Shown in pieces: positions 6,345 through 34,826 of a stretch of 64,000 bases of DNA. Source of the DNA: Sphingomonadales bacterium. Lineage in GTDB: Bacteria > Pseudomonadota > Alphaproteobacteria > Sphingomonadales > Sphingomonadaceae. Every line of letters begins with the position of its first letter. Positions within the stretch are counted from its first letter, which is position 1. The stretch is from positions 381 through 64,380 of the forward strand of contig JAXDPI010000041.1 in NCBI GenBank assembly GCA_034668465.1. Reading direction: 5' to 3'. A program made the position numbers and the translations under genes. The notes below the pieces were generated by a model, which was not told the origin of the DNA, did no database searches, and worked only from the letters and a program-made list of their open reading frames with translations.

Positions 6345-7619
6345 ATGAGCCAGAGCCATCGCCTGCGCAACATAATCGGCGGGTCGGCGGGCAACCTCGT
6401 CGAATGGTACGATTGGTACGCCTATTCGGCCTTCACGCTCTATTTCGCGCCGGTCTTCTTCCCGGCGGGCGACCGCACCGCCCAATTGCTGAGCGCGGCG
6501 GCGGTGTTCGCGGTCGGCTTCGTGATGCGGCCGATCGGGGCGTGGGCGATGGGCATCTATGCCGACCGCAAGGGGCGCAAGGCGGGGTTGAGCCTGTCGG
6601 TCGCCTTGATGTGCGCGGGCTCGCTGCTGATCGCGGTGACGCCCGGCTTTGCCGGCATCGGCGCCTGGGCGCCGGCCCTGCTGGTGTTCGCGCGGATGAT
6701 GCAAGGGCTCAGCGTCGGCGGCGAATATGGCGCCAGCGCGACCTATCTGAGCGAAGCGGCGGGGCGCACCCGGCGCGGCTTCTATTCGAGCTTCCAGTAC
6801 GTCACCCTGATCTCGGGCCAGCTGATCGCGCTCGCCGTTTTGATCGTGCTGCAGCAGACGCTGTCGGAGGAAGCGCTCGAGGCGTGGGGCTGGCGGATCC
6901 CGTTCGCGATCGGCGGCGCGCTGGCGGTGATCGTCTTCTACATCCGCCGCCGCCTGAGCGAGACCGAGAGCTTCGAAAATGCACGGGCCTCGGGCGCGCC
7001 GCGCTCGAGCGGGGCCTCCTTGTTCCGCGATCATCCCAAAGCGGCCTTGCTGGTGATGGCGCTGACCGCGGGCGGCACCTTGGCCTTCTACGCCTACACG
7101 ACCTACATGCAGAAATTCCTGGTCAACACGTCGGGCTTCGGCCGCGAGACGGCGACCCTGATCACCGCCGCCGCTCTGTTCCTGTTCATGTGCATCCAGC
7201 CCGCAGCCGGCGCCCTCTCGGACCGGATCGGGCGCAAGCCGGTGATGGTCACGTTCGGCGTGCTCGGCATGCTGCTGACCGTGCCGATCTTCACCGCGCT
7301 GGAGAGCGTGCGCGATCCGCTCGCCGCCTTCGCGCTGGTGCTCGCCGCCTTGCTGATCGTCACCGGCTACACCTCGATCAACGCGGTGGTGAAGGCCGAG
7401 CTCTTCCCCGCCCACATCCGCGCGCTCGGCGTCGCGCTTCCTTACGCGCTCGCCAACACCCTGTTCGGCGGCACCGCCGAATATGCCGCCTTGTGGTTCA
7501 AGGACCAGGGCATCGAGCGCGCTTTCTACTGGTACGTCACCGCGATGATCGGCCTCTCCCTGATCGTCTACCTGTCGATGCGCGACACCAAGAAGCACAG
7601 CCTGATCGCGGAGGATTAG
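6345..7619 (+). CDS. kgtP: MFS metabolite:H+ symporter, alpha-ketoglutarate permease-like
   Basis: GNLVEWYDWYAY, DRKGRK and GLSVGGEYGASATYLSE MHS-family motifs; start trimmed to ATG 6345. Confidence 0.8.
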   Translation: MSQSHRLRNIIGGSAGNLVEWYDWYAYSAFTLYFAPVFFPAGDRTAQLLSAAAVFAVGFVMRPIGAWAMGIYADRKGRKAGLSLSVALMCAGSLLIAVTPGFAGIGAWAPALLVFARMMQGLSVGGEYGASATYLSEAAGRTRRGFYSSFQYVTLISGQLIALAVLIVLQQTLSEEALEAWGWRIPFAIGGALAVIVFYIRRRLSETESFENARASGAPRSSGASLFRDHPKAALLVMALTAGGTLAFYAYTTYMQKFLVNTSGFGRETATLITAAALFLFMCIQPAAGALSDRIGRKPVMVTFGVLGMLLTVPIFTALESVRDPLAAFALVLAALLIVTGYTSINAVVKAELFPAHIRALGVALPYALANTLFGGTAEYAALWFKDQGIERAFYWYVTAMIGLSLIVYLSMRDTKKHSLIAED

Positions 7620-7671
7620 CTCTCCCGCGGACCGACGAAGGGAAGCGGGGGCGAGGGCTTGCGGTCGCGGC
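7616..7671 (-). repeat. Degenerate duplicate of the gcrA 3' end (att-like scar)
   Basis: Reads RDRKPSPPLPFVGPRES* versus RDRKPPPPLPFGGPRVR* in gcrA; 17-bp identical core GGGCTTGCGGTCGCGGC at 7655-7671 and 9267-9283. Confidence 0.85.
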
Positions 7672-7689
7672 AAAATATAACTCGCTCAT

Positions 7690-8274
7690 CTACTTCTTGG
7701 CACGCAATGTCATCGTTCTGACTATAGCTCTTTGTTTCTTCTTGGTGGCTTTGGCTGCTCGTTTGCGCTCGCTGAGAGACTTTCTTTTTTGCCTTTCCTG
7801 CAGGTGCGTGCCAAATCCAGAAATTGCCTTTTCCAACAAATCCTGGCAGTATTCCCACCTGATTTTAGAAGGTCTTATAGTCACCTCATAACTAGGGGAG
7901 ATTTCCGGCCATCGACGGTTAAGATATTCAAGAGAAAAACGCGCGCTTCTGCTATAGTAGTTGAACGTCCACTCACGCATTAGCTTGTCTTGTGGATATG
8001 CTACTGCATTGTCCTCTATGACTCTCTCTAGGAAGGCTTTGCCATGAGTAAAAACCTCTGATCTTCTGCCGGTCTTGTCCGCCAAAAAGGCGGCTCGCCA
8101 GAGGGAGAAGCACACCGAAGTTAGCTCTTGAGCTGCAACCGACAAATCCTTTGTTTTCCAGAATTTATCGTATTCCCGGAGAAGTAGGAGGAGAGCTAAG
8201 GCAGACTTCTGGTTACGGTGTCGGCTTTCGATCAACCAGGCCAGATGCTCTGCATTATCCACTTCGTCCGGCAC
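7690..8274 (-). CDS. Hypothetical protein (islet), helical with a Lys/Arg-rich C-terminal tail
   Basis: Open frame 7690-8346; AGGAGA RBS favours the GTG start at 8274. Confidence 0.7.
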   Translation of the reverse strand: MPDEVDNAEHLAWLIESRHRNQKSALALLLLLREYDKFWKTKDLSVAAQELTSVCFSLWRAAFLADKTGRRSEVFTHGKAFLERVIEDNAVAYPQDKLMREWTFNYYSRSARFSLEYLNRRWPEISPSYEVTIRPSKIRWEYCQDLLEKAISGFGTHLQERQKRKSLSERKRAAKATKKKQRAIVRTMTLRAKK

Positions 8275-8382
8275 GCAGATTCTCCTTGGGCAAATGTTTC
8301 TCGACCAGCCTGCTATGTCTTTGCCCAATGCGCAGCCGCCTGTCACTCTTCGGTGGCATGAGGTGCCAGAACAAGATGGGGA

Positions 8383-8772
8383 TCAGCCGGCGGCGGAAAA
8401 CCCGGCCACGATCATGGAAATGACCGCCGCAAGGAATAGCGCGAACATACCCTGTGCCGCCCAGCGCTCGTGTTTCTTGCTGCCGTTTGCCACCGTTTGC
8501 TGGTTTTCTGTCATCTCCCACCCGTTTTCATTGCGGTCGATCGCTTCCAGCGTCGCGGTAATTCCCATCAGATTTAGCAGGGCAAAGAGAATGGTCATGC
8601 CGAACAGCACCCAGGCAACATAAAGAGCCGAGGGAATGCTGAGCGGCATACCCTCGGGCGCAACTCGAAATTTGTCGAGGAAGGTAACGGTGAATGCAAC
8701 TGCGCCTGTCGACAGCGTGATGATCTGTTTGGTGATATCGGTGGCCGCCTTCAGCCCTTCGATGCTCGCCAT
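8383..8772 (-). CDS. Hypothetical small membrane protein (islet), about three TM segments
   Basis: 129 aa with three hydrophobic stretches. Confidence 0.7.
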   Translation of the reverse strand: MASIEGLKAATDITKQIITLSTGAVAFTVTFLDKFRVAPEGMPLSIPSALYVAWVLFGMTILFALLNLMGITATLEAIDRNENGWEMTENQQTVANGSKKHERWAAQGMFALFLAAVISMIVAGFSAAG

Positions 8773-8773
8773 G

Positions 8774-9097
8774 CTAGTCGCAGAACGGATACCGAGGGCA
8801 GAACCAACTCAGCGCGGGGAAGAAACTAAGCTCCCCCAGTAGATCTGGTGGATAGCCGGGGATGTTCCGCGCGAGCTCTTCAGCCTTGTCAACCAGCTCC
8901 GCCAGAGCGGCTACAGCCTCATCGATCGCATTCCCCGGCTGCTGTCCATGGTCGGCCAAGATCAAGTGTGCGGCCCGCTTAGTAAGGCCCTGGAGCTCCA
9001 AGTCGGCCCCCTCACCCAAATGGCGCCCCATCTCGGAGACGCGGTGTTTCGTGCGTTCGAACAAATGAGCCGCTAGACCATCAACAGTCCAAGCCAT
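8774..9097 (-). CDS. Hypothetical protein (islet)
   Basis: 107 aa ORF ending 1 bp before the next start, consistent with an operon. Confidence 0.5.
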   Translation of the reverse strand: MAWTVDGLAAHLFERTKHRVSEMGRHLGEGADLELQGLTKRAAHLILADHGQQPGNAIDEAVAALAELVDKAEELARNIPGYPPDLLGELSFFPALSWFCPRYPFCD

Positions 9098-9227
9098 CGA
9101 AATCCCCCAACTTTTTCAAAAGCGGGCGCAACCAACCTCGAATTCCTATCGAATACCGGGTGCAGGCGCAACACGGGCGCTCATAATACTGACATCGCGC
9201 GCGCCAGTGCCTGGAGAGGGGGAGCGC

Positions 9228-9914
9228 TCAGCGCACCCTTGGCCCGCCGAAGGGCAGCGGCGGCGGGGGCTTGCGGTCGCGGCGGGGAAGCTGGGCTTGG
9301 TAGGCGACGCCGCAATGCTGGACGCAATAGGGGAAGCCGGGATTGGCCGGGTTGCCGCAGAAGTGGAAATCGGGCTCGCCGGGATGGCCGATCGGCCATT
9401 TGCAGATCTTCTCGTTGAGATCCAGGAGGCCGGTCTTGTCGGCGATTTCGGGACTCGGCTTGGCCGGCACCAGGCGGCGCGGCGGCGCCGGCGGGATCGG
9501 CGCCTGCTGGTCGCTCGGCCCCTGGCGGACGAAGCCGCCCGGGCCGATCGAGCGGACGATCGGCTCCGGCGGGCCGGCCGGGCGCGGCGCTTCCTCGGCG
9601 GGCGGCGCACCCTCGGCGGGGGCCGGGGCGGACTTGGGTTCGGGCTTGGCCCGCGGCGCCGGCGCTTCGGCGGCGGGCGGCTTGGCCGCCGGCGCGGGGG
9701 CGGGCTCGACCTTCTCTTTGGCCTTTGCCTTGGGCTTGGGCTCGGGCTCGTTGGGCTTGACCGGCGACGGCCGCGACTGGAGGCCGAGCCGGTGCGCCTT
9801 GCCGATCACCGCGTTGCGCGAGACGCCGCCGAGCTCGTCGGCGATGTGGCTTGCGGTCATCCCCTTGGTCCACAACGCCTTCAGCCGCTCGATTCGTTCG
9901 TCGGTCCACGACAT
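9228..9914 (-). CDS. gcrA: Cell-cycle regulator GcrA
   Basis: MSWTDERIERLK...SRNAVIGKAHRLGL N-terminus, Pro/Ala linker, CKWPIGHP...FCG...YCVQH C-terminus. Confidence 0.95.
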   Translation of the reverse strand: MSWTDERIERLKALWTKGMTASHIADELGGVSRNAVIGKAHRLGLQSRPSPVKPNEPEPKPKAKAKEKVEPAPAPAAKPPAAEAPAPRAKPEPKSAPAPAEGAPPAEEAPRPAGPPEPIVRSIGPGGFVRQGPSDQQAPIPPAPPRRLVPAKPSPEIADKTGLLDLNEKICKWPIGHPGEPDFHFCGNPANPGFPYCVQHCGVAYQAQLPRRDRKPPPPLPFGGPRVR

Positions 9915-9975
9915 GCTCTTATCCTCACGCTCTGACGGCTTGCGGGTCCCGGCGTCTGCGACTAGCGACGGCGCT

Positions 9976-24291: not shown

Positions 24292-24300
24292 GCCCCCTTT

Positions 24301-24422
24301 CTCGTCATGCCGGACTTGATCCGGCATCCACCTTTTTCTGTCGACGACAGCCGCTGGAAGAAGGCAGACTCCGGATCAAGTCCGGAGTGACGATTTGCGA
24401 AAATAGTGACAGTCACTATTTT
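24301..24422. repeat. Composite repeat: GTCATGCCGGACTTGATCCGGCATCCA...CCGGATCAAGTCCGGAGTGAC hairpin plus palindrome AAAATAGTGACAGTCACTATTTT
   Basis: Direct reading; palindrome at 24400-24422. Confidence 0.9.
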
Positions 24423-24436
24423 TTGCGCGCGCTGCT

Positions 24437-25264
24437 TCAGGCCGGCTGCACGGCCTCCGAAACCGGGACCGCGGGGCGCTTGCCCGCCCGCCATCCGGCC
24501 CAGCTGGTCAGCGCGCCGATGGCGAAGCCGGACAGCACGACGGCCGCGCTGGGCGCCTGGCCGATCGCGGCAAGCAGCGATTTGAGCGGCGCCGAGTCCG
24601 CCATCAGCCCCATCGTCAGCATCTGCGCGGCGATGAAGCCGGCCGCGACGAGGAATGGGTTCGCCTTCTCCCGGTACCTGAGCCAGATCGCCGCGATCAC
24701 CGCCAGCTCGATCGCCATCGCCCACAGGATCGACGGCATGATCAGGCCGAAATCGTCGGGCCCGCCGATGACGAGGCCCGGCATGAACCCATTGAGCAGC
24801 CGGCTGAACGGCGATTCGAACAGGATCAGCGGCGTCGTCAGCATGTAGCCCGCGTGAACCCACACCTTCCGCCTGTATTTGAGCGCCCGGTAATAGACGG
24901 TGACATAAGCGGCGATGGCGAGCGCCAGGCCGATCAGGAACGAACCGCCGAACATGATCCGCACCGGGCCGTCGCCCGCGACGAAACCCTTGGCGGTCAC
25001 GTCGATGATCGCGGCGAGCCCGCCGATCAGGAACGGGAAGAGCAGCAGGCTGGCCTTGCCGACCGCGCGGTGCAGCGGCAGCTGCCGGTGCTGCGCGGTC
25101 CAGCTCTGCGCCGCGACCATCGTCACCCACAGGCCGGCGGCGACGCCATGGGCGTGAAACTGCCAGGGCGCGCTGCCCCAAACCGAAAAATAGCTCGGCC
25201 AGAACCCGGCGACGATCACGGCGATCACGACCAGCACGTAAACATGCGCATGGCGATACGGCAT
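24437..25264 (-). CDS. Multi-pass membrane protein with conserved His residues
   Basis: About seven TM segments; QFHAHG, LHRAVGK, WVHAGYML. Confidence 0.8.
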   Translation of the reverse strand: MPYRHAHVYVLVVIAVIVAGFWPSYFSVWGSAPWQFHAHGVAAGLWVTMVAAQSWTAQHRQLPLHRAVGKASLLLFPFLIGGLAAIIDVTAKGFVAGDGPVRIMFGGSFLIGLALAIAAYVTVYYRALKYRRKVWVHAGYMLTTPLILFESPFSRLLNGFMPGLVIGGPDDFGLIMPSILWAMAIELAVIAAIWLRYREKANPFLVAAGFIAAQMLTMGLMADSAPLKSLLAAIGQAPSAAVVLSGFAIGALTSWAGWRAGKRPAVPVSEAVQPA

Positions 25265-25349
25265 GGGGTCCCCCTCCCGTTGCGGCGGGGGCTTAGCACG
25301 GAACGGGCGAGGATGCGCGGGCGGAGTTCGCGGGGAGACAGCTCCCCTT

Positions 25350-25414
25350 CTCGTCATGCCGGACTTGATCCGGCATCCACCTGGGGGTCAGAAAATAGTG
25401 ACAGTCACTATTTT
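25350..25414. repeat. Second, internally shortened copy of the composite repeat
   Basis: 33 bp identical to 24301-24333, followed by AAAATAGTGACAGTCACTATTTT at 25392-25414. Confidence 0.9.
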
Positions 25415-25459
25415 CCGCTGGGCCACGTGGTCGATGCAGGCGCCGCCGGCGATGGATCC

Positions 25460-25909
25460 TCACTCCACCCACAACCCCGTCTGCCGCAGCGCCTCCGCCA
25501 GCCCGATCCCCGCCGCCACCGCCAGGTTCAGCGACCGCGTCCCCTCGACCTGCGGGATGCGCACCCGCGAGTCCGCCCGCTTATGCACCTCTTCCGGCGC
25601 ACCGCGGCTTTCGGAGCCGAAGAGCAGGGTGTCGCCAAGTTCGAAGCGCGCCTCGGGGAGGGGGACGGCGCCGGCGGTGGTGAACAGGACCAGCCGCCCC
25701 GGCAGCCGCGCCTCGAACGCCGCCCAGTCGGCGTGCCGGGTCACGTTGGCGAGCTCCGCATAGTCCATGCCGGCGCGCTTCAGCGCCTTGTCGCCCCACG
25801 GAAAGCCGCAGGGCTCGATCAGGTCGAGCGGGACGCCGAGGCAGGCGGCGAGGCGCAGGATCGTGCCGACATTCCCCGCCTGGTCGGGCTGATGGAGCGC
25901 GAGCCGCAT
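25460..25909 (-). CDS. trmL: tRNA (cytidine(34)-2'-O)-methyltransferase
   Basis: HQPDQAGNVGTILR, IEPCGFP, RAGMDY, FGSESRG, RSLNLAVA (SPOUT). Confidence 0.95.
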   Translation of the reverse strand: MRLALHQPDQAGNVGTILRLAACLGVPLDLIEPCGFPWGDKALKRAGMDYAELANVTRHADWAAFEARLPGRLVLFTTAGAVPLPEARFELGDTLLFGSESRGAPEEVHKRADSRVRIPQVEGTRSLNLAVAAGIGLAEALRQTGLWVE

Positions 25910-25919
25910 CGGACAGTGA

Positions 25920-26792
25920 TCAGGGCGCGGCACGCGAGACAAGGCGCCGCTCCACCGTGTCCGTGAATGTCTGGGTCTCGCGCCCGCCATCCGGCCCTTC
26001 GATCGCCAGCTCGGTGACCTTCCTCCGCCGCCGCACGCGCCCCGCCGCATCCGTTTCGAAATTGATCCTGATCGTTCCGGAAATCCGCTCGGCCGAGTGC
26101 GCCTGAAGCGCCGCGTCGAGCGACAGGCTCTCCCTCCTGCCGATTTCCGCGACGACGACATCATTTTGGGCACGTTCCCGGCGTACCGCCTCGGGGTCGA
26201 CCTCCAGCTCGACGACGAAAGCCGCGCCATCCGAACCGCGCGTCTCCCGTCTCAGGACCCCCGGTCCGCGCGCGCCGGCCTCCCGATACGGCGCTCCCTC
26301 ACGAAGATCGAGCGACTCAAGATCGAGTCGCGCGAGCCCCGGGATCACCGATTGCGGATCGCATTCGATGCGGAACGCGTTCCAGGTGAAAATCCACCGG
26401 CCGCATATTGCGCGGGGCCACCCCGCGGCCGCCAGCCAGCGCTCGACGCGCGCTTCAAGCTCGGCGCCGTTGAGCAGCTGGAGCGGCCCCTGCGACGGCC
26501 GCAGAACGCGCACGGGAAATTGCCAGGTCCGGGCCCGATCCTCGGCCGTCGCGTCGTCGGGAAGGTCGAATTCCAGCTCCTCTCCGGCGTCGCGCACCGC
26601 GATCACGCGCTCCATCAGCACGTCGACATCGCGTGAGCTCCCCGAAGAGCCTTCGCCGGAGCTCCGCGACCACAGGCGCTCGCTCCGAATTTCGTATCGG
26701 TCGCCGGCACGCGATCCGCCCTGCGGCTCCTGGGCGTGCGCGGCGAGGGCCTGCAACAGCAGCGTCGTCCCCACCGTCAGCGCTCGCAGCAT
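25920..26792 (-). CDS. Secreted hypothetical protein
   Basis: GAAAGG RBS; signal peptide ending AAHA-Q; CGRWIFTWNAFRIECDP motif. Confidence 0.75.
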   Translation of the reverse strand: MLRALTVGTTLLLQALAAHAQEPQGGSRAGDRYEIRSERLWSRSSGEGSSGSSRDVDVLMERVIAVRDAGEELEFDLPDDATAEDRARTWQFPVRVLRPSQGPLQLLNGAELEARVERWLAAAGWPRAICGRWIFTWNAFRIECDPQSVIPGLARLDLESLDLREGAPYREAGARGPGVLRRETRGSDGAAFVVELEVDPEAVRRERAQNDVVVAEIGRRESLSLDAALQAHSAERISGTIRINFETDAAGRVRRRRKVTELAIEGPDGGRETQTFTDTVERRLVSRAAP

Positions 26793-26904
26793 CAGCCTAC
26801 CTTTCATCACCAAGGAAAACGCACGGTGTATTCGATCAGAATGCGCCCGGGCGCGCAAATGCATCCGAACCGCGGCGGAGGCGTTTCGCCCGGAGACTGT
26901 AAAT

Positions 26905-26945
26905 GGGCACACGTATTTTTTTGGCCAAAAAGTACGTGTGCCCAT
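26905..26945. repeat. REP-like inverted repeat ATGGGCACACGTA...TACGTGTGCCCAT
   Basis: 13-bp arms around a T/A-rich spacer. Confidence 0.75.
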
Positions 26946-27085
26946 AATCTAAACAAAAACTCCAGCGACCCCTTCACCAGTCGATCGTCGGCTACTGGCC
27001 GTTAGCGGACGGGCCGCTTCCGGCGGCTTTCCATCCAAAGCTGTCATAGGAATGTGGCGCTCGGCATGCCGAGCGCCACCTACAT

Positions 27086-27199
27086 CTAGATTTCCGTGCC
27101 CTCGGCGAGCGCCAAGGCATCTTCGATATCTACGCCGAGATATCGGACGGTGCTCTCAATCTTCGTGTGGCCAAGCAGGATCTGCACGGCTCTTAGATT
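27086..27199 (-). pseudogene. C-terminal remnant of a tyrosine recombinase/integrase
   Basis: Manual translation NLRAVQILLGHTKIESTVRYLGVDIEDALALAEGTEI* contains the box II LLGH and the catalytic Tyr (T.RY); no upstream part is recognisable; not in the ORF track. Confidence 0.88.
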
Positions 27200-27452
27200 G
27201 CGGGCCGGCCCGCCAGCCAGACGCTTGCTTCACCTACACTGGTTCTTTCCTATTCCATAAAAAAATCCAAGATAGATTCAGTAAATATACGCACTAGTTA
27301 ATATTCTATTACGTTTTATATAAGTATCTTCCCGCAATCTAGCGTAAAAATGCGGTCTATGACTACAGATCATATGGGGATATCTCGAATCCCGATCTAA
27401 GGCCGACTTGGATCCTGCTTGTTATAATTAGTTAGAGAGGGACAGAATTACA

Positions 27453-27938
27453 ATGAAAAGCACCAAAATGATCCTAGGCGCAGCAATTGTCTGCATGATG
27501 TCCGCCACCGCCGCCTCCGCGCAGACCAGCACGGCGAACATGGCCGTGAGCGCAGACGTATCGACGGTATGCAGTTTCGACACCACGCCGCTCGCCTTCG
27601 GTGAAATGGCACTCACCGGCGCCACGCCCGGCACGGCGACCCTGAGCATCACCTGCACGGGCGGCGGCGCTTATACGGTGGGCCTGGGCAACGGCCTGCA
27701 CAACGTCGCCGCCCAGCGCAACCTGGTCAGCGGCGTGAATATCCTCGCCTATGACCTCTTCCAGGATTCTGCGCGCGGTACCCGCTGGGGCGACGCCGGC
27801 GCGGGACTGGTCTCCGGCACCGGCACCGCCGCTGAACAGACGCTGACGGTCTATGGGTCGATCACCACGGGCCAGGCTTTGGTGGCGGACGGCGGCACTC
27901 CCTATACCGACACGATCCTCGTCACGCTCACCTACTGA
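27453..27938 (+). CDS. Spore-coat-U domain (Csu-type) fimbrial major subunit
   Basis: Signal peptide, C..LAFG, ITCT, LAYDLFQDSAR...WGD, YTDTILVTLTY. Confidence 0.92.
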   Translation: MKSTKMILGAAIVCMMSATAASAQTSTANMAVSADVSTVCSFDTTPLAFGEMALTGATPGTATLSITCTGGGAYTVGLGNGLHNVAAQRNLVSGVNILAYDLFQDSARGTRWGDAGAGLVSGTGTAAEQTLTVYGSITTGQALVADGGTPYTDTILVTLTY

Positions 27939-28678
27939 TGACTGGCCCGGCGATGAGGATTTGCACGATATTGAAACCGGCACTGGCCGCGCTGATCGCC
28001 TGGTGTTGCCTGCCTTCCGGCGTTGCGAATGCGAGCTCGCTGGAGATTTCGCCGGTGTCGGTCAATCTCGTCGCCGGCCAGAGCACCAGGGTCATCGAAA
28101 TAAGGAATCGCGGCGGTAGCTCCGTCGCGATTCAAATTCGCGCTTATGCCTGGTCCCAGTCGGGGAACACCGACGTTCTTGTTCCCACCAGAGACATCAT
28201 CCTTTCTCCTCCGATCTTCACCATTCCGGCGGGCGCCTCGCAGACCATAAGACTTCTGCTGCGGGGACCGGGAGGGACAGGGGAGCGCAGCTATCGGCTG
28301 CTGCTTGACGAAGTGCTTTCGCCCGACGCGCAGCGCAGTCAGGTCGGCATCGCTTTGCGCATCTCGCTTCCGGTGATTACGGCCGCAGCTTCGCCGCCGT
28401 CGCGTAGCCTGCGTTGGCGTGCCCGACGGGGCCCGGGCAACCAGATACTGGTCTCGGCCGCCAACACGGGCAATGTCTACGACAAGGTGCACGCAATCGC
28501 CGTGACCTTGCCGGACGGCAGCCACCCGGCGATCGCATCGAGTGGAGACAACCCCTACCTCCTCACCAACGCGCAACGTGAATGGGTCGTGCAGGGCGCC
28601 ACGCCGGCGCCCACGCTGCGACTGAATGTCACGACTCAGGCAGGCATTAGCGAGCATGTCCTTGTCATAGACTCCTGA
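27938..28678 (+). CDS. Fimbrial periplasmic chaperone (CsuC/PapD-like)
   Basis: IRNRG, SPPIFTIPAGASQTIRL, ERSYRLLLDEV, LRISLPV; start may be the ATG a few codons later. Confidence 0.9.
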   Translation: MTGPAMRICTILKPALAALIAWCCLPSGVANASSLEISPVSVNLVAGQSTRVIEIRNRGGSSVAIQIRAYAWSQSGNTDVLVPTRDIILSPPIFTIPAGASQTIRLLLRGPGGTGERSYRLLLDEVLSPDAQRSQVGIALRISLPVITAAASPPSRSLRWRARRGPGNQILVSAANTGNVYDKVHAIAVTLPDGSHPAIASSGDNPYLLTNAQREWVVQGATPAPTLRLNVTTQAGISEHVLVIDS

Positions 28679-31011
28679 TGCGCAGCGTCCTGGCCGGCAG
28701 CGCTCTGATCGCGACAATGCTGGTGGCAGGCACCGCGTTGGCGGCAGAACGCGCCCTGGTGCTGGAGATTGTCGTCAACGGGCGTCCGACTGGCCAGGTG
28801 GGCGAGTTTCTCGATCGCGACGGCGCAATCTACGCCAGGCCGTCCGACCTGTTCGAGCTAGGATTCGTCCTGCCTGAAGGTACGGCCATGGGCGCCGATC
28901 CGATTCCGCTCTCGGCGCTTCCCGACTTTCGCGCACGCGTCGATGAGGCCAGGCAGAGGCTGCTGGTGGAGGCGGGCGATTCCGCGCAGCGCCCGACCGA
29001 ATTGAGGAGCGGGACCGCGTCCGAACTCGCCCCCTTCTCGCCTCCGGGATTCGGTGCGGTGTTCAATTACGACATAGCCGTCACCTATGCTGGCGGCCGT
29101 GCGACGGGCGGCGCGCTGGCAGAGTTGAGCGCCTTCAGCCCCTATGGGGTGTTGCAGAGCTCGGCCCTCGTCAATCTCACGCCGTTTCCGGGCCAGAAGC
29201 GCTTCGCCCGCCTCGATACCACATTCACCGGCACCGAATTCTCCAGGCTGCGACGGTGGCGCCTCGGCGATGTCGTGACCGGCGCCTTGCCCTGGAGCCG
29301 GGCGGTGCGGCTCGGCGGCGTCCAGATCGCCAGCGACTTCGGATTGCGCCCAGACCTCGTCACCTATCCGTTGCCGCAGATCAGTGCTTCGGCGGCGGTC
29401 CCTTCGACGGTCAACGTGGTAGTCAACGGCATTCAGCAGCTTAGCCAGCCCGTCCAGCGGGGCCCGTTCGCCTTCCGGTCGCTTCCGGTCGTGACGGGCT
29501 CCGGCGAGATCGCCGTGACCGTGTCGGACCCCCTGGGCCGGCAAACCCTGATCACGCTACCCTTCTATGCCAGCGCCGCACTGCTGAGGCCCGGGCTTGC
29601 AAGCTATTCGCTCGAAATCGGCTCGGTGCGGGAGAACTTCGGCCAGGGCGACGACCGATACACCGGTTGGGCCGCAAGCCAGTCCTCGCGTTACGGATTG
29701 ACGGAGTGGCTGACGCTGGAAAGTCACGCCGAGGTGACCGGGCGACTGGGCCTGCTGGGCGGCGGCTTCACGATGCTGGTGGGCACCCTCGGCACGGTTA
29801 ATATCGCGGCCGCTGGCAGCATCGGACGCGGGCCGTCCTTCGCACGCTCGAGCGGGGCTTTGGTCGCGGTCGGCTTCGAGCGCAGGACCGCCAAATTCAG
29901 CATTGGCGCGAGCGGGACCTATGCGACCGCCGGCTATCGCGACATCGCCGCGGAACATGGCGCGCCGATGCCCAGGGCCTCGCTCAACGCCAGCCTGGGG
30001 TATCAGCTCGGCTGGTTGGGCAGCCTGGGCATCGCCTATAGCGGCCGCATTTCCAGGGCGCGGCCATCAGGTCCGATCCAAGCGTCGCCGGACGGGAGGC
30101 TCGCTGATCCGGACATTCATCTCGTCACGGGAAGCTACAGCGTTCCGATTGCGGGGCGCGCCGCTTTCTATGCAACCGGGTTCAGGGATCTTCGCGATCG
30201 CAGGGCCTATGGCATCGGCGTCGGGATCAGCTTCTCGCTCGGGCGGACGACCGCTTCGGCCCAGGTCTCGCGGGACGGCGGACAGTCCAGCTGGTCCGCG
30301 AACGTCTCCCGATCCACGCAGAAGCAGGACGATTTCGGCTACCGCGCGCAGCTTTCCGAAGGCGCCGCCTCGCGCGGCTCGCTGGAAGGAGAGTATCTCG
30401 GCTCCTGGGGCCGGGTATCGGCAGGAGTCGACCTCTCTTCTGGGGCAATTGCCGGACGCGCCGGGGCGCGGGGCGCGCTGGTCCTGGCCGGCGGGAGCCT
30501 GTTCGCGAGCGACCAGATCCACGACAGCTTTGCCGTGGTGAGCACGGGGAACGTCGGCGGCGTGCCGGTGCTGTACGAGAACCGGCCCATCGGCCGCACC
30601 GACGCGCGCGGCAGGCTCCTGATCCCGTCGCTGCTTTCCTATCGCAACAACCGGCTTGCGGTCGACGCGACCAAGCTGCCCCCCGACGTCGAGGTGGGGC
30701 AAACTTGGATGCTGGTGCGGCCGCCCGACCGATCGGGCGTGGTGGTGGATTTCAATATCCGCCGCGTGTCCGCCGCGCTGCTGACATTACACGACCGCGA
30801 CGGCAGTCCGGTTCCGCTCGGCTCGACGGTGCGGATCGCGGGCGCGGCGGACCAACCCGTGGGGCATGACGGCGAGGCCTATGTCGCAGGGTTGAAACCA
30901 GGCAACCGGGCAGAGGTCATCCTGCCGGACGGGAGCACATGCGTCGCGCAGTTCGACTATGTGCCGGTGAATGGCGAAATCCCCCTCATAGGACCGGTGC
31001 GATGCCAATGA
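28678..31011 (+). CDS. Fimbrial outer-membrane usher (CsuD-like)
   Basis: LEIVVNG, RLGGVQIASDFGLRPDLVTYP, GRTDARGRLLIPSLLSYRNN, VGHDGEAYV, terminal Cys pair. Confidence 0.93.
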   Translation: MRSVLAGSALIATMLVAGTALAAERALVLEIVVNGRPTGQVGEFLDRDGAIYARPSDLFELGFVLPEGTAMGADPIPLSALPDFRARVDEARQRLLVEAGDSAQRPTELRSGTASELAPFSPPGFGAVFNYDIAVTYAGGRATGGALAELSAFSPYGVLQSSALVNLTPFPGQKRFARLDTTFTGTEFSRLRRWRLGDVVTGALPWSRAVRLGGVQIASDFGLRPDLVTYPLPQISASAAVPSTVNVVVNGIQQLSQPVQRGPFAFRSLPVVTGSGEIAVTVSDPLGRQTLITLPFYASAALLRPGLASYSLEIGSVRENFGQGDDRYTGWAASQSSRYGLTEWLTLESHAEVTGRLGLLGGGFTMLVGTLGTVNIAAAGSIGRGPSFARSSGALVAVGFERRTAKFSIGASGTYATAGYRDIAAEHGAPMPRASLNASLGYQLGWLGSLGIAYSGRISRARPSGPIQASPDGRLADPDIHLVTGSYSVPIAGRAAFYATGFRDLRDRRAYGIGVGISFSLGRTTASAQVSRDGGQSSWSANVSRSTQKQDDFGYRAQLSEGAASRGSLEGEYLGSWGRVSAGVDLSSGAIAGRAGARGALVLAGGSLFASDQIHDSFAVVSTGNVGGVPVLYENRPIGRTDARGRLLIPSLLSYRNNRLAVDATKLPPDVEVGQTWMLVRPPDRSGVVVDFNIRRVSAALLTLHDRDGSPVPLGSTVRIAGAADQPVGHDGEAYVAGLKPGNRAEVILPDGSTCVAQFDYVPVNGEIPLIGPVRCQ

Positions 31012-31496
31012 CGCGATTGCGATCGCTGGGGCTCGGACTTGGCTGCCTGATCGTCCTGGAACCCGCGCCTGCCAGGGCAGGCGGCAACGTCAGTTGCAGC
31101 ATTTCCACCACAGCGCTCGTTTTCGGGCAATATGTCCCGTCGCGCAATGGAGCGTCCGACTTTACTGCGACGATCCAGGTGAACTGCATGTCTCCCGGCG
31201 AAGCACCCGTGCCGGTCCTGGGAAGCATTTCGCTGATCGGCCGGGGCGCGAATGGACGGCGTGAACTGACGGACCGCGCGCATCGCCTCATCTATCAGCT
31301 GTTTCTCGATCCCGCCCGAACGATTCCGTGGGGAGACGGGAGCGGCGAAAGCCGCACGCAGCCCATTTCCGGCGTAGCGGGTGGCGCCACTCCCTTTCGA
31401 GCGACCGTGACCGTCTATGGCCGCATTCTCGCGCGCCAGGCGGGAGCGTCGGTGGGAAGCTATTCCGATCAGATCACGGCGGTGCTGAGTTACTGA
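31008..31496 (+). CDS. Second spore-coat-U domain subunit (minor pilin)
   Basis: CSISTTALVFGQY, IQVNC, LIYQLFLDPARTIPWGDG, GSYSDQITAVLSY. Confidence 0.88.
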   Translation: MTRLRSLGLGLGCLIVLEPAPARAGGNVSCSISTTALVFGQYVPSRNGASDFTATIQVNCMSPGEAPVPVLGSISLIGRGANGRRELTDRAHRLIYQLFLDPARTIPWGDGSGESRTQPISGVAGGATPFRATVTVYGRILARQAGASVGSYSDQITAVLSY

Positions 31497-31794
31497 GAAC
31501 CCTGGGAGTCGATCCCCGGCTTCCGCGCGACGCCGAGCCGCATCGAGACGCGCGTCTCCTATTTTCAGTCAATGCGGATAAGCGCCTTGGTGATGGCATG
31601 AGGAACGGCGGCTTTCAGGGCTGCGCGAAGCGGTCGTGATCGGCCGTTATGGGCGCATAGCTGCCGTTCGCTCAGGGCTAATGATGCTCTCACACCCCAC
31701 CACCCTTGTCTGCCGTACCGCCTTGGCCACCCCAATCCCCGCCGCCAACGCGAGGATCAGCGAGCGCGTGACCGACAGCTCTGGGTTGCGCGCG

Positions 31795-31852
31795 CCGGAG
31801 GATGGCGCCGGCACGTCCCGCCCTGGTTCGGCTGGTGGAGCGCGAGCCGCAT
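31795..31852 (-). pseudogene. Degenerate duplicate of the trmL 5' end (att-like scar)
   Basis: Reads ATG CGG CTC GCG CTC CAC CAG CCG AAC CAG (MRLALHQPNQ), then a frameshifted GAILR-like remnant; 17 bp identical to 25893-25909. Confidence 0.85.
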
Positions 31853-32018
31853 GGCAGCCAATTAGCCGATGCAGCGTTCGCTGTCACAGCCGCCTCAAAA
31901 TGCCTGTTGGCAAAGGCCGTCCGCCCCGTCTATCAGGCGCGCCAAGCCGCCCGGGCCTGGCGCCGGCCCGGTGCGTAAGTGTCGCTTGTCCCGGTCCCCG
32001 TAGAAGCAGAAGGAATTT

Positions 32019-32588
32019 ATGGCTGCGGTTGAACTGAACGAGGGTGCGGCCCATGCGGTCGACGATGGCGGCGTCCGCCGCCGCGACTTCATCAACATCG
32101 CCGCGGTGAGCTTTGCCGGCGTCGGCAGCCTCGCGCTTCTCTATCCGCTGCTCGACCAGATGAACCCGTCGGCGGACATCCTCGCGCTCGCCCAGATCGA
32201 CGTCGACATCGCCGCGATCCGGCCCGGCCAGGCGATCAAGACGATCTGGCGCAAGCAGCCGATCTTCATCCGCAATTTGACCCCGGCCGAGATCAATGCC
32301 GCCAATGCGGTCGACACCGCCTCGCTGCGCGATCCGGCGACGCTCGCCGAGCGGACCAAGGAGGGCCATGCCAACTGGCTGATCACCTTGGGCGTGTGCA
32401 CCCATTTAGGCTGCGTGCCGCTGGGCGCGGCGGAGGGCGAGAATCGCGGCGAGTATGGCGGCTATTTCTGCCCCTGCCACGGCTCGCATTACGATACCGC
32501 GGCGCGCGTCCGCAAAGGGCCGGCGCCGCGCAATCTCGAAGTGCCGGAATATGAATTCACGGCGCCCACCGCCGTCCGCATCGGCTGA
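32019..32588 (+). CDS. petA: Ubiquinol-cytochrome c reductase Rieske subunit
   Basis: Tat RRDF; CTHLGC and CPCHGSHY. Confidence 0.97.
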   Translation: MAAVELNEGAAHAVDDGGVRRRDFINIAAVSFAGVGSLALLYPLLDQMNPSADILALAQIDVDIAAIRPGQAIKTIWRKQPIFIRNLTPAEINAANAVDTASLRDPATLAERTKEGHANWLITLGVCTHLGCVPLGAAEGENRGEYGGYFCPCHGSHYDTAARVRKGPAPRNLEVPEYEFTAPTAVRIG

Positions 32589-32600
32589 GGTTTTTCAAAG

Positions 32601-33902
32601 ATGAGCTTTCCCTGGGCTGAAGATTACAAACCCAAGCATCCCTTGATGCGCTGGCTCGACGACCGGCTGCCCTTGCCGCGGCTCGTCTTCAATTCGGTCG
32701 GCGGCGGCTATCCGGTGCCGCGCAACCTCAATTACATGTGGAATTTCGGCGTCCTCGCCGGCCTCGCTCTGGTCATCCAGCTGGTCACCGGCATCGTCCT
32801 GGCGATGCACTATAATTCGAACGCCGACACCGCTTTCACCTCGCTCGAGCATATCATGCGCGACGTCAATTGGGGCTGGTTCCTGCGCTACGCCCATTCC
32901 AACGGCGCGAGCTTCTTCTTCCTGGTCACCTATATCCACATCTTCCGCGGCCTCTATTACGGCTCGTACAAGGCGCCGCGCGAAATGGTCTGGATGCTCG
33001 GCCTCGTCCTCTTCCTGCTGATGATGGCGACCGCGTTCATGGGCTATGTCCTGCCCTGGGGGCAGATGAGCTTCTGGGCGGCCAAGGTGATCACCGGCCT
33101 GTTCGGCGCGATTCCCCTGGTCGGCGAGCCGATCCAGCATTGGCTGCTCGGCGGCTACGCGCCCGACCAGCCGACTTTGACCCGCTTCTTCTCGCTCCAT
33201 TACCTGCTGCCGTTCGTGATCGTCGGGGTGGTCATCCTCCACATCTGGGCGCTGCACATTCCCGGCTCGAGCAACCCCACCGGCGTCGACGTCAAGACCC
33301 CGCAGGACACCGTGCCCTTCCATCCTTATTACACCGCCAAGGACGGGTTCGGCGCGGGCGTCGGCCTGATCCTGCTCGCCTTGCTGATCTTCTTCGCGCC
33401 CAACATGCTCGGCCACCCGGTCAATTACGTGCCCGCCAACCCGCTCTCGACGCCGGCGCACATCACGCCCGAATGGTATTTCTGGCCCTATTACGCGATC
33501 CTGCGCGCGTTCACCGTCGATTTCATCCTGCCGGCCAAATTGTGGGGCGTGCTGGCGATGTTCTCCTCGATCCTGCTCCTGTTCTTCCTGCCCTGGCTCG
33601 ACAAGTCGCCGGTCCGCTCGGGCAGCTACCGGCCGATGTTCCGGATCTTCTTCCTGATCCTGATCATCGACATCCTCGTGCTCGGCTGGCTCGGCGGGCT
33701 GCCGGCCGAAGAGCCCTATGTGATGATGAGCCAGCTCGCGACGATGTATTATTTCGCGCACTTCCTGATCATCCTGCCGATCCTCTCCCTAGTCGAGCGG
33801 ACGCTGCCCTTGCCCAATTCGATTTCGGAGAGCGTGCTGCACGGCGAGGATGAAGAAGCCGCGCCCGCCGTCATTCCCGGCGTCACGCCGGCGCAAGCGT
33901 AA
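32601..33902 (+). CDS. petB: Cytochrome b
   Basis: [21 protein letters not shown]. Confidence 0.98.
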
Positions 33903-33917
33903 GGGGACGATAGCCAC

Positions 33918-34826
33918 ATGGTCCGCATTCTCGGCTTCCTGGTCGGTCTCGGCTTCGTCGGCGTCGCCGCCTGGTCGCTGCTCTGGGGCGTGATCGCCTA
34001 TGTCGGCGATCCGCCGCAGCCGACCGCCGAGCAGCTCCACCACGAGCATCCGCGCAGCATCGCTTATTCGTTCGACGGCCCGTTCGGCCGCTGGGACCGC
34101 CAGCAGCTCCAGCGCGGCTTGCTCGTCTTCCAGGAGGTCTGCTCGGCCTGCCACAGCCTGAATCTGGTCGCGTTCCGCAACCTGCGCGATCTCGGCTACA
34201 CCGAAGCGGAAGTGCGCGCGATCGCCGACCGCTGGCGGATCCAGATGCCCTCGATCAACCCGGATACGGGCGAGCCCGCGCGGCGCAAGCCGATCCCGGC
34301 CGACCATTTCCCGAGCCCCTATCCCAACGAGACCGCGGCGCGCGCCGGCAACAACAACGCGCTGCCGCCCGATCTGTCGCTGATGGCCAAGGCGCGCGAG
34401 GGCGGCGCGGCCTATATCGAATCGCTGCTGACCGGCTATCAGGCGCCGCCGGCCGGGGTCGAGACGCCGCACGGGCTCCACTACAATCCCTATTTCGCCA
34501 ACCTCAACATCGCGATGCCGCCGCCGCTCACCGCCGACGGCCAAGTGACCTACGGGCCGGGCAACCCGCCGGCGACCCGCCAGCAGATGGCGCACGACGT
34601 CGCCGCCTTCCTGATGTGGGCGGCCGAGCCCAATCTCGAGCGGCGCCACGCGATCGGCCTGCCGGTGATCATCTTCCTGATCTTCGGCACGATCCTCGCT
34701 TATCTCGCCTATCAGAACATCTGGCACGGCCCGGCCAGCCGCCGCGTCCGCCCCACCGGCGCCCTCGATCCGGAGCATATAGCGAAAAACGAGGACGCGA
34801 AGGACGAGGCCGGCATCGCGGGCTGA
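33918..34826 (+). CDS. petC: Cytochrome c1
   Basis: CSACH, PPDLSLMAKAR, MPPPL, C-terminal TM. Confidence 0.97.
   Translation: MVRILGFLVGLGFVGVAAWSLLWGVIAYVGDPPQPTAEQLHHEHPRSIAYSFDGPFGRWDRQQLQRGLLVFQEVCSACHSLNLVAFRNLRDLGYTEAEVRAIADRWRIQMPSINPDTGEPARRKPIPADHFPSPYPNETAARAGNNNALPPDLSLMAKAREGGAAYIESLLTGYQAPPAGVETPHGLHYNPYFANLNIAMPPPLTADGQVTYGPGNPPATRQQMAHDVAAFLMWAAEPNLERRHAIGLPVIIFLIFGTILAYLAYQNIWHGPASRRVRPTGALDPEHIAKNEDAKDEAGIAG

What the first reader, a model, noticed from the sequence alone, without database searches (positions are those of the whole stretch)
25874..31852. Six-kb island inserted at the START of trmL, leaving a decayed copy of the first codons beside petA
Seen: trmL begins MRLALHQPDQAGNVG at 25909. 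A second copy, MRLALHQPNQ plus a frameshifted remnant, starts at 31852 next to the petA upstream region. The copies match at 33 of 36 nt with 17 bp identical. Between them lie a secreted-protein gene, an integrase remnant and a fimbrial operon. Established: trmL and petA are commonly divergent neighbours in Alphaproteobacteria. Inference: an element recombined within the trmL 5' end and supplied a new start, so trmL expression now depends on island DNA. Integration at a 5' end is less usual than at a 3' end.
Basis: partly seen in the sequence, partly recalled or inferred. Interest (0 to 1): 0.75.

Follow-up and report, generated by a model that had tools for sequence, protein, structure and literature searches.

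The report
Patchwork island between two trmL copies
A 5.8-kb stretch of accessory genes lies between a working tRNA-methylase gene (trmL) and the broken relic of a second full trmL copy beside petA; this is an ordinary, repeatedly remodelled variable spot, not one element cut into the gene's first codons.

Summary
The repeat of the first trmL codons is real (32/37 nt, first 17 identical). It is a trmL pseudogene with one 286-nt internal deletion. It sits at the ancestral position, colinear with relatives from petC through about the first 60 nt of trmL.

The DNA between the two copies is accessory and composite:
- a secreted-protein gene (sec290) ending 10 nt before the intact trmL; one genus-mate, G049, has the same unit;
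- the last 42 codons of a small tyrosine recombinase;
- a four-gene SCPU chaperone-usher cassette, 88-96% identical to cassettes in three unrelated contexts.

In 27 genomes of the genus the trmL-petA gap ranges from 0.15 to 13 kb with unrelated cargo. Two genus-mates (G058, G024) have the same layout with other cargo, and their relics lack the first codons.

Best reading: a whole second trmL copy arose by recombination at trmL, the petA-side copy then decayed, and the cargo turned over. Integration at a 5'-end att site is not supported. The inference that trmL now depends on island DNA for expression remains plausible.

This is a new member of a known kind, of modest interest.

The parts
25460..25909 (-). 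Intact trmL, the working copy (150 codons)
   Evidence: ORF and translation. Pfam SpoU_methylase 4e-30. Best NCBIfam matches are the TrmL equivalogs at 111-113 bits, below their cut-offs of 190.6 and 282. It is 85-90% nt identical to genus-mates G061, G056 and G058 along its whole length and nests inside its own clade in the trmL tree.
25920..26792 (-). sec290: accessory gene for a 290-aa protein with an N-terminal signal peptide; its stop is 10 nt before the trmL ATG
   Evidence: No Pfam or NCBIfam hit. Found in only 5 of 120 other genomes of the genus. The sec290-trmL unit is colinear with G049's at 73% over 1269 nt. The G000 and G049 proteins are sisters among about 60 homologues.
26902..26945 (.). 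REP-like palindrome upstream of sec290
   Evidence: Inverted repeat I16. More than 30 similar copies across the own genome.
27086..27214 (-). Relic of a tyrosine recombinase gene: stop codon plus the last 42 codons, including the catalytic Tyr region (LLGH...RYLGV)
   Evidence: Six-frame reading. 80-82% nt identical to the 3' ends of 210-aa recombinase genes in Sphingomonas and Lysobacter loci. The full-length relatives P0004 and P0005 match Pfam Phage_integrase at 8e-20.
27240..27452 (+). AT-rich leader of the fimbrial cassette (GC about 0.48-0.50 against about 0.67 around it)
   Evidence: Composition profile. A similar AT-rich leader precedes the cassette in L151 and L153. Nucleotide homology to L153 starts at 27353.
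27453..31496 (+). Four-gene chaperone-usher fimbrial cassette: SCPU subunit 27453-27938, PapD-like chaperone 27938-28678, usher 28678-31011, second SCPU subunit about 31008-31496
   Evidence: Pfam SCPU 1e-26 and 1e-18, PapD_N 2e-11, Usher 5e-34, PapC_C 1e-10. The best usher match in the genus is only 44% identical. Metagenome contigs carry cassettes 88%, 88% and 96% identical in nt, in three different neighbourhoods.
31497..31657 (+). 3' flank that travels with the cassette, with a palindromic hairpin at 31545-31558
   Evidence: Shared with contig L152 up to 31657, after which L152 continues into a different locus. Terminator-like hit.
31650..31665 (+). 16-nt motif TGGGCGCATAGCTGCC at the cassette's right junction, about 30 nt past the end of the relic
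   Evidence: An exact second copy lies at own-genome contig C4:18243-18258. That locus is the counterpart (80% nt) of L152's flank, and L152's cassette ends on the same motif. The motif also follows the trmL relics of G058 and G024 at the same offset.
31697..31852 (-). trmL pseudogene at the ancestral position: nt 1 to ~58 (about 31795-31852) joined to nt ~345 to the stop region (31697 to about 31794); 286 nt missing, frameshifted
   Evidence: the repeat finder D1 and D7. Register alignments and translations. BLAST against own and relatives' trmL.
31853..32018 (.). Native trmL-petA spacer, kept intact; contains the genus-conserved TTTGCCAACA-N3-ATTTTGA (about 31895-31914)
   Evidence: Colinear with G019 and others. 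Upstream alignments.
32019..32588 (+). petA (Rieske subunit), right-hand core flank, followed by petB and petC

Best explanation
The stretch 25910-31696 is a composite accessory region in a spot between trmL and petA that varies across the whole genus.

It is bracketed by two direct copies of trmL:
- The petA-side copy is the resident gene. It still has its native leader and first ~58 nt, and it was inactivated by one 286-nt internal deletion.
- The far copy is the working gene. It lies behind the accessory gene sec290 and is probably co-transcribed with it.

Proposed sequence of events:
1. Inferred: a second full-length trmL arose when trmL-bearing DNA recombined with the chromosomal gene. 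This could be a single crossover of a circular molecule carrying sec290-trmL, or unequal exchange.
2. Shown for the outcome, inferred for the cause: the redundant petA-side copy decayed.
3. Shown by comparison: the cargo between the copies was remodelled. A small tyrosine recombinase gene was cut down to 42 codons. A horizontally travelling SCPU chaperone-usher cassette was added, and its right junction lies on a 16-nt motif about 30 nt downstream of the relic.
For: Anatomy of the relic: 5' and 3' trmL segments with a single 286-nt gap.

The relic is at the ancestral place: colinear with G019 from petC into trmL nt ~60, with a near-identical leader.

The left flank is also native: memb306-hemF next to the intact copy is shared with G061, G058 and G024 at 86-89%.

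A full-length ancestor of the relic is implied. The window keeps nt 1-58 and ~345-450. G058 keeps nt 293-452. G024 keeps nt 367-450. These are different deletions of one kind of copy.

The intact copy is not a distant xenologue: it is uniformly 85-90% identical to clade-mates and nests inside its clade.

The spot is hypervariable: gaps of 0.15-13 kb carrying an oxygenase, a histidine kinase with LuxR, a YadA-like adhesin, GmrSD, a NACHT ATPase and others, with no integrase gene in any.

The cassette is a separate arrival: 96% identical to L152 while L152's flanks are only 80% identical to this genome.

The sec290-trmL unit has a single origin shared with G049.
Against: - No genome with two intact copies was found, so the full-length intermediate is inferred.
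- The mechanism of the duplication is not shown. No circular form, no flanking att pair and no complete recombinase gene is present.
- The copies differ by 14-26%. That needs either an old event or a donor from another lineage, and the short relic cannot tell which. A fragment-placement tree pairs the relic with its own intact copy (0.86), but on a very long branch.
- In G024, 57 nt of the pre-sec290 sequence abut the petA-side relic. A one-step shared history does not explain this.
- Sequence downstream of the two copies shows no similarity.
Confidence: 0.55

Rival explanations
1. One integrative element recombined site-specifically within the first codons of trmL. It supplied a new start and promoter and left the displaced native start beside petA, as dusA-type islands do.
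For: - The first 17 nt are identical in both copies, and the native leader stays with the relic.
- In every clade genome with an insertion, homology upstream of the working trmL breaks right at the ATG.
- A tyrosine recombinase relic lies inside the island.
- 5'-end integration has precedent in dusA islands (PMC4482086).
Against: - The relic continues with trmL's last ~105 nt.
- The first 17 nt are conserved across much of the genus anyway, so identity there is not an att signature.
- The relics of G058 and G024 lack the 5' codons.
- The island is composite.
- The recombinase relic is 1.2 kb from the nearer end, and its full-length relatives are 210-aa proteins.
- None of nine relatives' insertions carries an integrase gene.
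Confidence: 0.12
2. Purely local duplication. Unequal exchange between sister chromosomes, for example at REP-like repeats, duplicated trmL with no foreign DNA involved. Unrelated insertions later filled the gap.
For: - The relic pairs with its own intact copy in the placement tree.
- The intact copy is typical of its clade.
- REP-like and composite repeats crowd this locus.
Against: - No similarity is left between the sequences downstream of the two copies.
- sec290 abuts the far copy's ATG in both G000 and the outgroup G049. This suggests that sec290 and that trmL copy belong together.
Confidence: 0.2
3. Repeated site-specific integration at the 3' end of trmL by elements that carry their own trmL. 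Each round would leave the upstream copy followed by a conserved element arm (the 16-25 nt motif) and would hand the function to the new downstream copy. This would have happened once in G000 and twice in G024 and G058.
For: - All three petA-side relics keep the 3' region and are followed by the same motif at the same offset.
- G024's relic is preceded by pre-sec290 sequence.
- Short 3' trmL relics also lie on the hemF side in G024, G008 and G010.
- The same motif marks the cassette junction at a second locus.
Against: - The motif is exact in only three genomes, and looser matches are at control level.
- There is no second motif copy at the other end of the island or the cassette.
- No intact element or integrase was found.
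- It requires different elements each to carry trmL behind a different gene.
Confidence: 0.13

Closest known systems
Chromosomal hotspots or flexible genomic islets between conserved core genes (named from my own knowledge, not checked in a paper here)
   Same: The same two core flanks (trmL, petA) across the genus. Unrelated cargo of 0.7-13 kb in 15 of 27 genomes, including defence genes, adhesins and regulators. No mobility genes in most.
   Different: Here one flanking core gene is itself duplicated, and the resident copy has decayed while the far copy took over.
dusA-associated integrase islands, which integrate in the 5' end of dusA (PMC4482086)
   Same: An accessory region separates a tRNA-modification gene from its native upstream DNA, and the gene's start is repeated.
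   Different: dusA islands have an integrase gene at the junction and a short att repeat. Here the repeat spans both ends of the gene, the recombinase is an internal 42-codon relic of another type, and the region is composite.
Islands integrated at the 3' end of protein-coding genes, such as SGI1 at trmE (named in the abstract of PMC8409611)
   Same: Short 3'-end duplicates of trmL lie on the hemF side in G024, G008 and G010.
   Different: In the window the intact copy is the one far from the native promoter, and the relic has both gene ends.
SCPU / Csu-type chaperone-usher fimbrial operons
   Same: Subunit, chaperone, usher, subunit gene order, with the matching Pfam domains.
   Different: Nothing unusual in the operon itself. 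What stands out is that it travels as a bare four-gene cassette.

Membership tests
Integrase-borne island at a gene's 5' end (dusA type) | Integrase gene next to one island end | tested here: not met
   Only the stop codon and last 42 codons of a recombinase remain, at 27086-27214. That is 1.2 kb from the trmL end and 4.5 kb from the relic end.
Integrase-borne island at a gene's 5' end (dusA type) | Short direct att repeat confined to the target's 5' end | tested here: not met
   The repeats cover trmL nt 1 to ~58 and also nt ~345-450.
Integrase-borne island at a gene's 5' end (dusA type) | Single element, absent as a unit from empty sites | tested here: not met
   Empty sites exist, for example G019. 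But the content is at least three modules with separate histories.
Integrase-borne island at a gene's 5' end (dusA type) | Excision to a circle and restoration of the empty site | not testable with these tools
Core-gene-flanked variable hotspot | Same flanking core genes with unrelated cargo across related genomes | tested here: met
   27 genomes of the genus: gaps of 150 bp to 13 kb with unrelated Pfam content.
TrmL (SPOUT tRNA 2'-O-methyltransferase) | SpoU_methylase domain, about 150 aa, single domain | tested here: met
   Pfam PF00588 at 4e-30 over residues 2-137.
TrmL (SPOUT tRNA 2'-O-methyltransferase) | Score above the NCBIfam TrmL equivalog cut-off | tested here: not met
   113.5 and 111.2 bits against cut-offs of 282 and 190.6. 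TrmL is nevertheless the best-scoring family. The name rests on best match and conserved hemF-trmL-petA synteny.
Chaperone-usher fimbriae, SCPU type | SCPU subunits, PapD-like chaperone, and usher with PapC_C | tested here: met
   All four genes hit above the Pfam cut-offs.
Tyrosine recombinase | Catalytic-domain motifs including the Tyr nucleophile | tested here: inconclusive
   The relic reads LLGH...RYLGV. Its full-length relatives hit Phage_integrase at 8e-20. The window's copy lacks about 170 codons and cannot be active.

The most novel reading that the evidence does not exclude
In this sphingomonad genus trmL may serve as a reusable docking gene. Incoming DNA would carry its own trmL and recombine with the resident one, orphaning it and taking over its function, in successive rounds. 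A 16-25 nt motif just past trmL, also found at a second locus, would act as a site-specific junction for cargo such as the fimbrial cassette.
Probability: 0.2. Interest if true: 0.55.

Novelty: new member of a known kind. Interest (0 to 1): 0.3.

Why it matters
It shows how a housekeeping tRNA-modification gene can be moved away from its promoter, and handed to an accessory gene's transcription unit, without being lost: the old copy stays behind as a datable relic. It also marks trmL-petA as a hotspot for defence genes, adhesins and regulators in this genus, which is useful for annotation. The conserved motif at two junctions of the cassette is a testable lead for how bare fimbrial cassettes move. 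None of this overturns current views of island biology.

Tried and rejected
- Integrase genes in relatives' insertions (G058, G024, G061, G056, G122, G129, G090): none found.
- A recombination breakpoint inside the intact trmL, by sliding identity against 12 relatives: none found.
- A trmL relic in G049's petA-sec290 spacer, and own-trmL relics in the intervals of 19 genomes: found only in G058, G024, G008 and G010.
- Tandem-duplication test, comparing the sequence downstream of the relics with that downstream of intact copies against shuffles: nothing beyond chance.
- Linkage of sec290 to trmL or fimbriae in 56 loci from other genera: none. The only exception is Blastomonas, where it lies downstream of petC.
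- Is the sequence downstream of the relic a repeat family? No: it is single-copy in the own genome.
- A second copy of the 16-nt motif at the island's or the cassette's left end: none.
- tRNA genes and Rfam families across the region: none.
- Literature linking trmL to island integration: none found.
- Phylogenetic placement of the relics: too short and too decayed to decide.
Full report
**Observation**

trmL occupies 25460-25909 on the minus strand and begins MRLALHQPDQAGNVG. It matches Pfam SpoU_methylase at 4e-30. Its best NCBIfam families are the TrmL equivalogs, but at 111-113 bits it scores below their cut-offs.

A second ATGCGGCTCGCGCTCCA lies at 31852. The repeat finder pairs 25873-25909 with 31816-31852 at 32/37, and the first 17 nt are identical.

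It pairs 25472-25571 with 31701-31800 (100 nt, 74%), which corresponds to trmL nt ~339-438. The two repeats have start-to-start spacings of 5943 and 6229. The copy beside petA is therefore trmL minus 286 internal nt: nt 1 to ~58 joined to nt ~345 through the stop region. It is frameshifted and closed by stops. When the whole genome is searched with trmL DNA, both parts of the relic are found at E 2e-7 and 2e-13.

- a gene for a 290-aa protein with a signal peptide (25920-26792; no Pfam or NCBIfam hit);
- the stop and last 42 codons of a tyrosine recombinase (27086-27214, minus strand);
- an SCPU / PapD / usher / SCPU operon (27453-31496).

No tRNA gene and no Rfam family lies in the region.

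**Where the relic sits**

I compared 27 genomes of the genus and five of other genera of the order. The ancestral order is hemF-trmL, then petABC on the opposite strand. The trmL-petA gap is at most 352 bp in 12 of the 27 genus genomes and in four of the other five.

Window 31790-34730 aligns colinearly with genus-mate G019, which has no insertion. The alignment runs from petC through petA and the spacer into about the first 60 nt of trmL. The 70 nt upstream of the relic's ATG match G019's leader almost base for base. The relic is therefore the resident gene in its original place.

The intact copy is attached to the native left flank. The memb306-hemF genes beside it are shared with G061, G058 and G024 at 86-89%. 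The intact copy is 85-90% identical to clade-mates along its entire length, with no sign of a mosaic. It nests inside its own clade in a trmL tree.

**The island is composite**

1. *sec290.* It ends 10 nt before the trmL ATG. It occurs in only 5 of 120 other genomes of the genus. In one of them, G049, it sits in the same position, between petA and trmL. The sec290-trmL units of the two genomes are colinear (73% over 1269 nt), and the two proteins are sisters among about 60 homologues. G049 has no trmL relic.

2. *The recombinase relic.* It is 80-82% nt identical to the 3' ends of genes for 210-aa tyrosine recombinases with only the catalytic domain, found in Sphingomonas and Lysobacter loci.

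3. *The fimbrial cassette.* The best usher match in the genus is only 44% identical. Metagenome contigs, however, carry cassettes 88%, 88% and 96% identical in nt, in three unrelated neighbourhoods. The homology boundaries in the window are 27353 or 27445 on the left and 31502-31657 on the right. The 96% copy (L152) comes from an organism whose flanking genes are only 80% identical to this genome. That points to a recent transfer between species.

**The locus is a hotspot**

In the clade around the window the trmL-petA gap ranges from 0.15 to 13 kb:

| Genome | Gap | Cargo |
|---|---|---|
| G019 | 0.15 kb | none |
| G045 | 0.3 kb | not examined |
| G061 | 1.2 kb | MpaB-like oxygenase whose stop overlaps the trmL ATG |
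| G056 | 2.0 kb | the same oxygenase |
| G129 | 1.4 kb | no Pfam hit in the ORFs scanned |
| G090 | 3.1 kb | YadA-like adhesin, LuxR |
| G122 | 3.9 kb | histidine kinase, LuxR |
| window | 5.9 kb | this island |
| G058 | 12 kb | NACHT/AAA ATPase |
| G024 | 13 kb | GmrSD, HTH protein, M50B and CAAX peptidases |

No integrase gene was found in any of these. Upstream of the working trmL, homology between genomes stops at the ATG in every case.

**Two genus-mates share the layout**

G058 and G024 also have an intact trmL on the memb306-hemF side, then cargo, then a trmL relic beside petA. Their relics keep only trmL nt 293-452 and nt 367-450, with no first codons. The window's relic has nt 1-58, which those two lack. 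G058's relic has nt 293-344, which the window lacks. The simplest common source is a full-length copy that lost different pieces in each lineage.

All three relics are followed, at the same offset after the stop, by GCGAAYGGCRGCTATGCGCCC. That sequence is exact only in these three genomes. Looser matches elsewhere occur at the level of the control.

In G024 the relic is preceded by 57 nt that match the window's pre-sec290 sequence at 46/57. That copy therefore once stood behind sec290, and the history has more than one step.

Short 3' trmL relics also lie on the hemF side in G024, G008 and G010.

**Mechanism**

*Shown:*
- Two trmL-derived direct repeats bracket accessory DNA.
- The petA-side copy is a deletion pseudogene in the ancestral position.
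- The cargo is modular and of separate origins.

*Inferred:* a second full trmL was created by recombination at trmL. This could be a single crossover with trmL-bearing DNA such as a sec290-trmL unit, or unequal exchange. The redundant resident copy then decayed.

I could not decide between a foreign and a local source for the second copy:
- The copies are 74-86% alike, about the same as between species.
- A placement tree pairs the relic with its own intact copy, but on a very long branch.
- The sequences downstream of the two copies share nothing.

With only 10 nt between sec290 and trmL, and no predicted terminator or promoter there, trmL is probably read from sec290's promoter.

**A junction motif**

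The cassette's homology with L152 ends on TGGGCGCATAGCTGCC (31650-31665), part of the sequence that follows the relics. An exact second copy lies in this genome's contig C4 (18243-18258). That is the very place where L152's flank is homologous, so it is an empty counterpart of L152's occupied site. The cassette thus ends on the same 16-nt motif at two unrelated loci. Empty copies exist in C4, G058 and G024. No second copy lies at the cassette's left end. This could be a site-specific target or a join through short homology.

**Comparison with what is known, and verdict**

The closest concept is a variable hotspot flanked by core genes. No paper in the library links trmL with island integration.

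Verdict:
- This is a new member of a known kind, of modest interest (0.3).

Noticed in passing
window 31650-31665; own genome contig C4:18243-18258; L152 about 2965-2975; L141 18282-18297; L130 6771-6786: The 16-nt motif TGGGCGCATAGCYGCC marks the right end of the fimbrial cassette at two unrelated loci: beside the trmL relic here, and beside a peptidase S9 gene in contig L152. It also occurs as empty copies in this genome's C4 locus and after the trmL relics of G058 and G024. It could be an att-like target or a short-homology join.
   Followed up: partly
window 24292-24425 and 25341-25415: The 306-aa membrane-protein gene (24437-25357) is bracketed by direct copies of a composite repeat: a 42-nt unit at 95% identity plus the identical palindrome GAAAATAGTGACAGTCACTATTTT. 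Similar units lie upstream of trmL in G045.
   Followed up: partly
window 26902-26945: A 19+19-nt palindrome (ATGGGCACACGTA...TACGTGTGCCCAT) is a REP-like family with more than 30 copies across the own genome. Copies also occur in relatives' loci L044 and L150.
   Followed up: partly
window about 31895-31914: TTTGCCAACA-N3-ATTTTGA in the trmL-petA spacer is conserved across many genomes of the genus, and it marks where nucleotide homology on the petA side ends. It is probably a promoter or regulator site for petABC or trmL.
   Followed up: no
L036 14848-14922 (G024); L042 12873-12924 (G008); L047 3748-3797 (G010): Short relics of the trmL 3' end (nt about 346-434) lie next to hemF or memb306, with 2.5-4.6 kb inserted between them and the intact trmL. 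The 3' end of trmL is therefore also a recurrent insertion point. In several genomes trmL's end overlaps the start of hemF.
   Followed up: partly
L130 (G024) 6900-19000; L036 10279-10944; L141 (G058) 6450-18300: The relatives' insertions at this spot carry defence-type genes: GmrSD restriction endonuclease, AHJR-like/HepT, and a NACHT/AAA ATPase.
   Followed up: partly
L093 7379-8011; L083 16690-17322; L061 about 17258-17335: Genes for 210-aa tyrosine recombinases with only the catalytic domain lie 2-7 kb from sec290 homologues in Sphingomonas kyeonggiensis, Sphingomonas sp. DG1-23 and Lysobacter dokdonensis. These are the family of the window's relic.
   Followed up: partly
L108 (Blastomonas sp. 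AAP53) 10001-10698: A sec290 homologue lies 1.5 kb downstream of petC, at the same hemF-trmL-petABC locus, in another genus.
   Followed up: no
L143 10396-11478 (G061); L145 18828-19907 (G056): An MpaB/Lcp-like oxygenase gene ends in TGATG, overlapping the trmL start codon. This is another case of trmL being captured into an accessory gene's transcription unit.
   Followed up: partly
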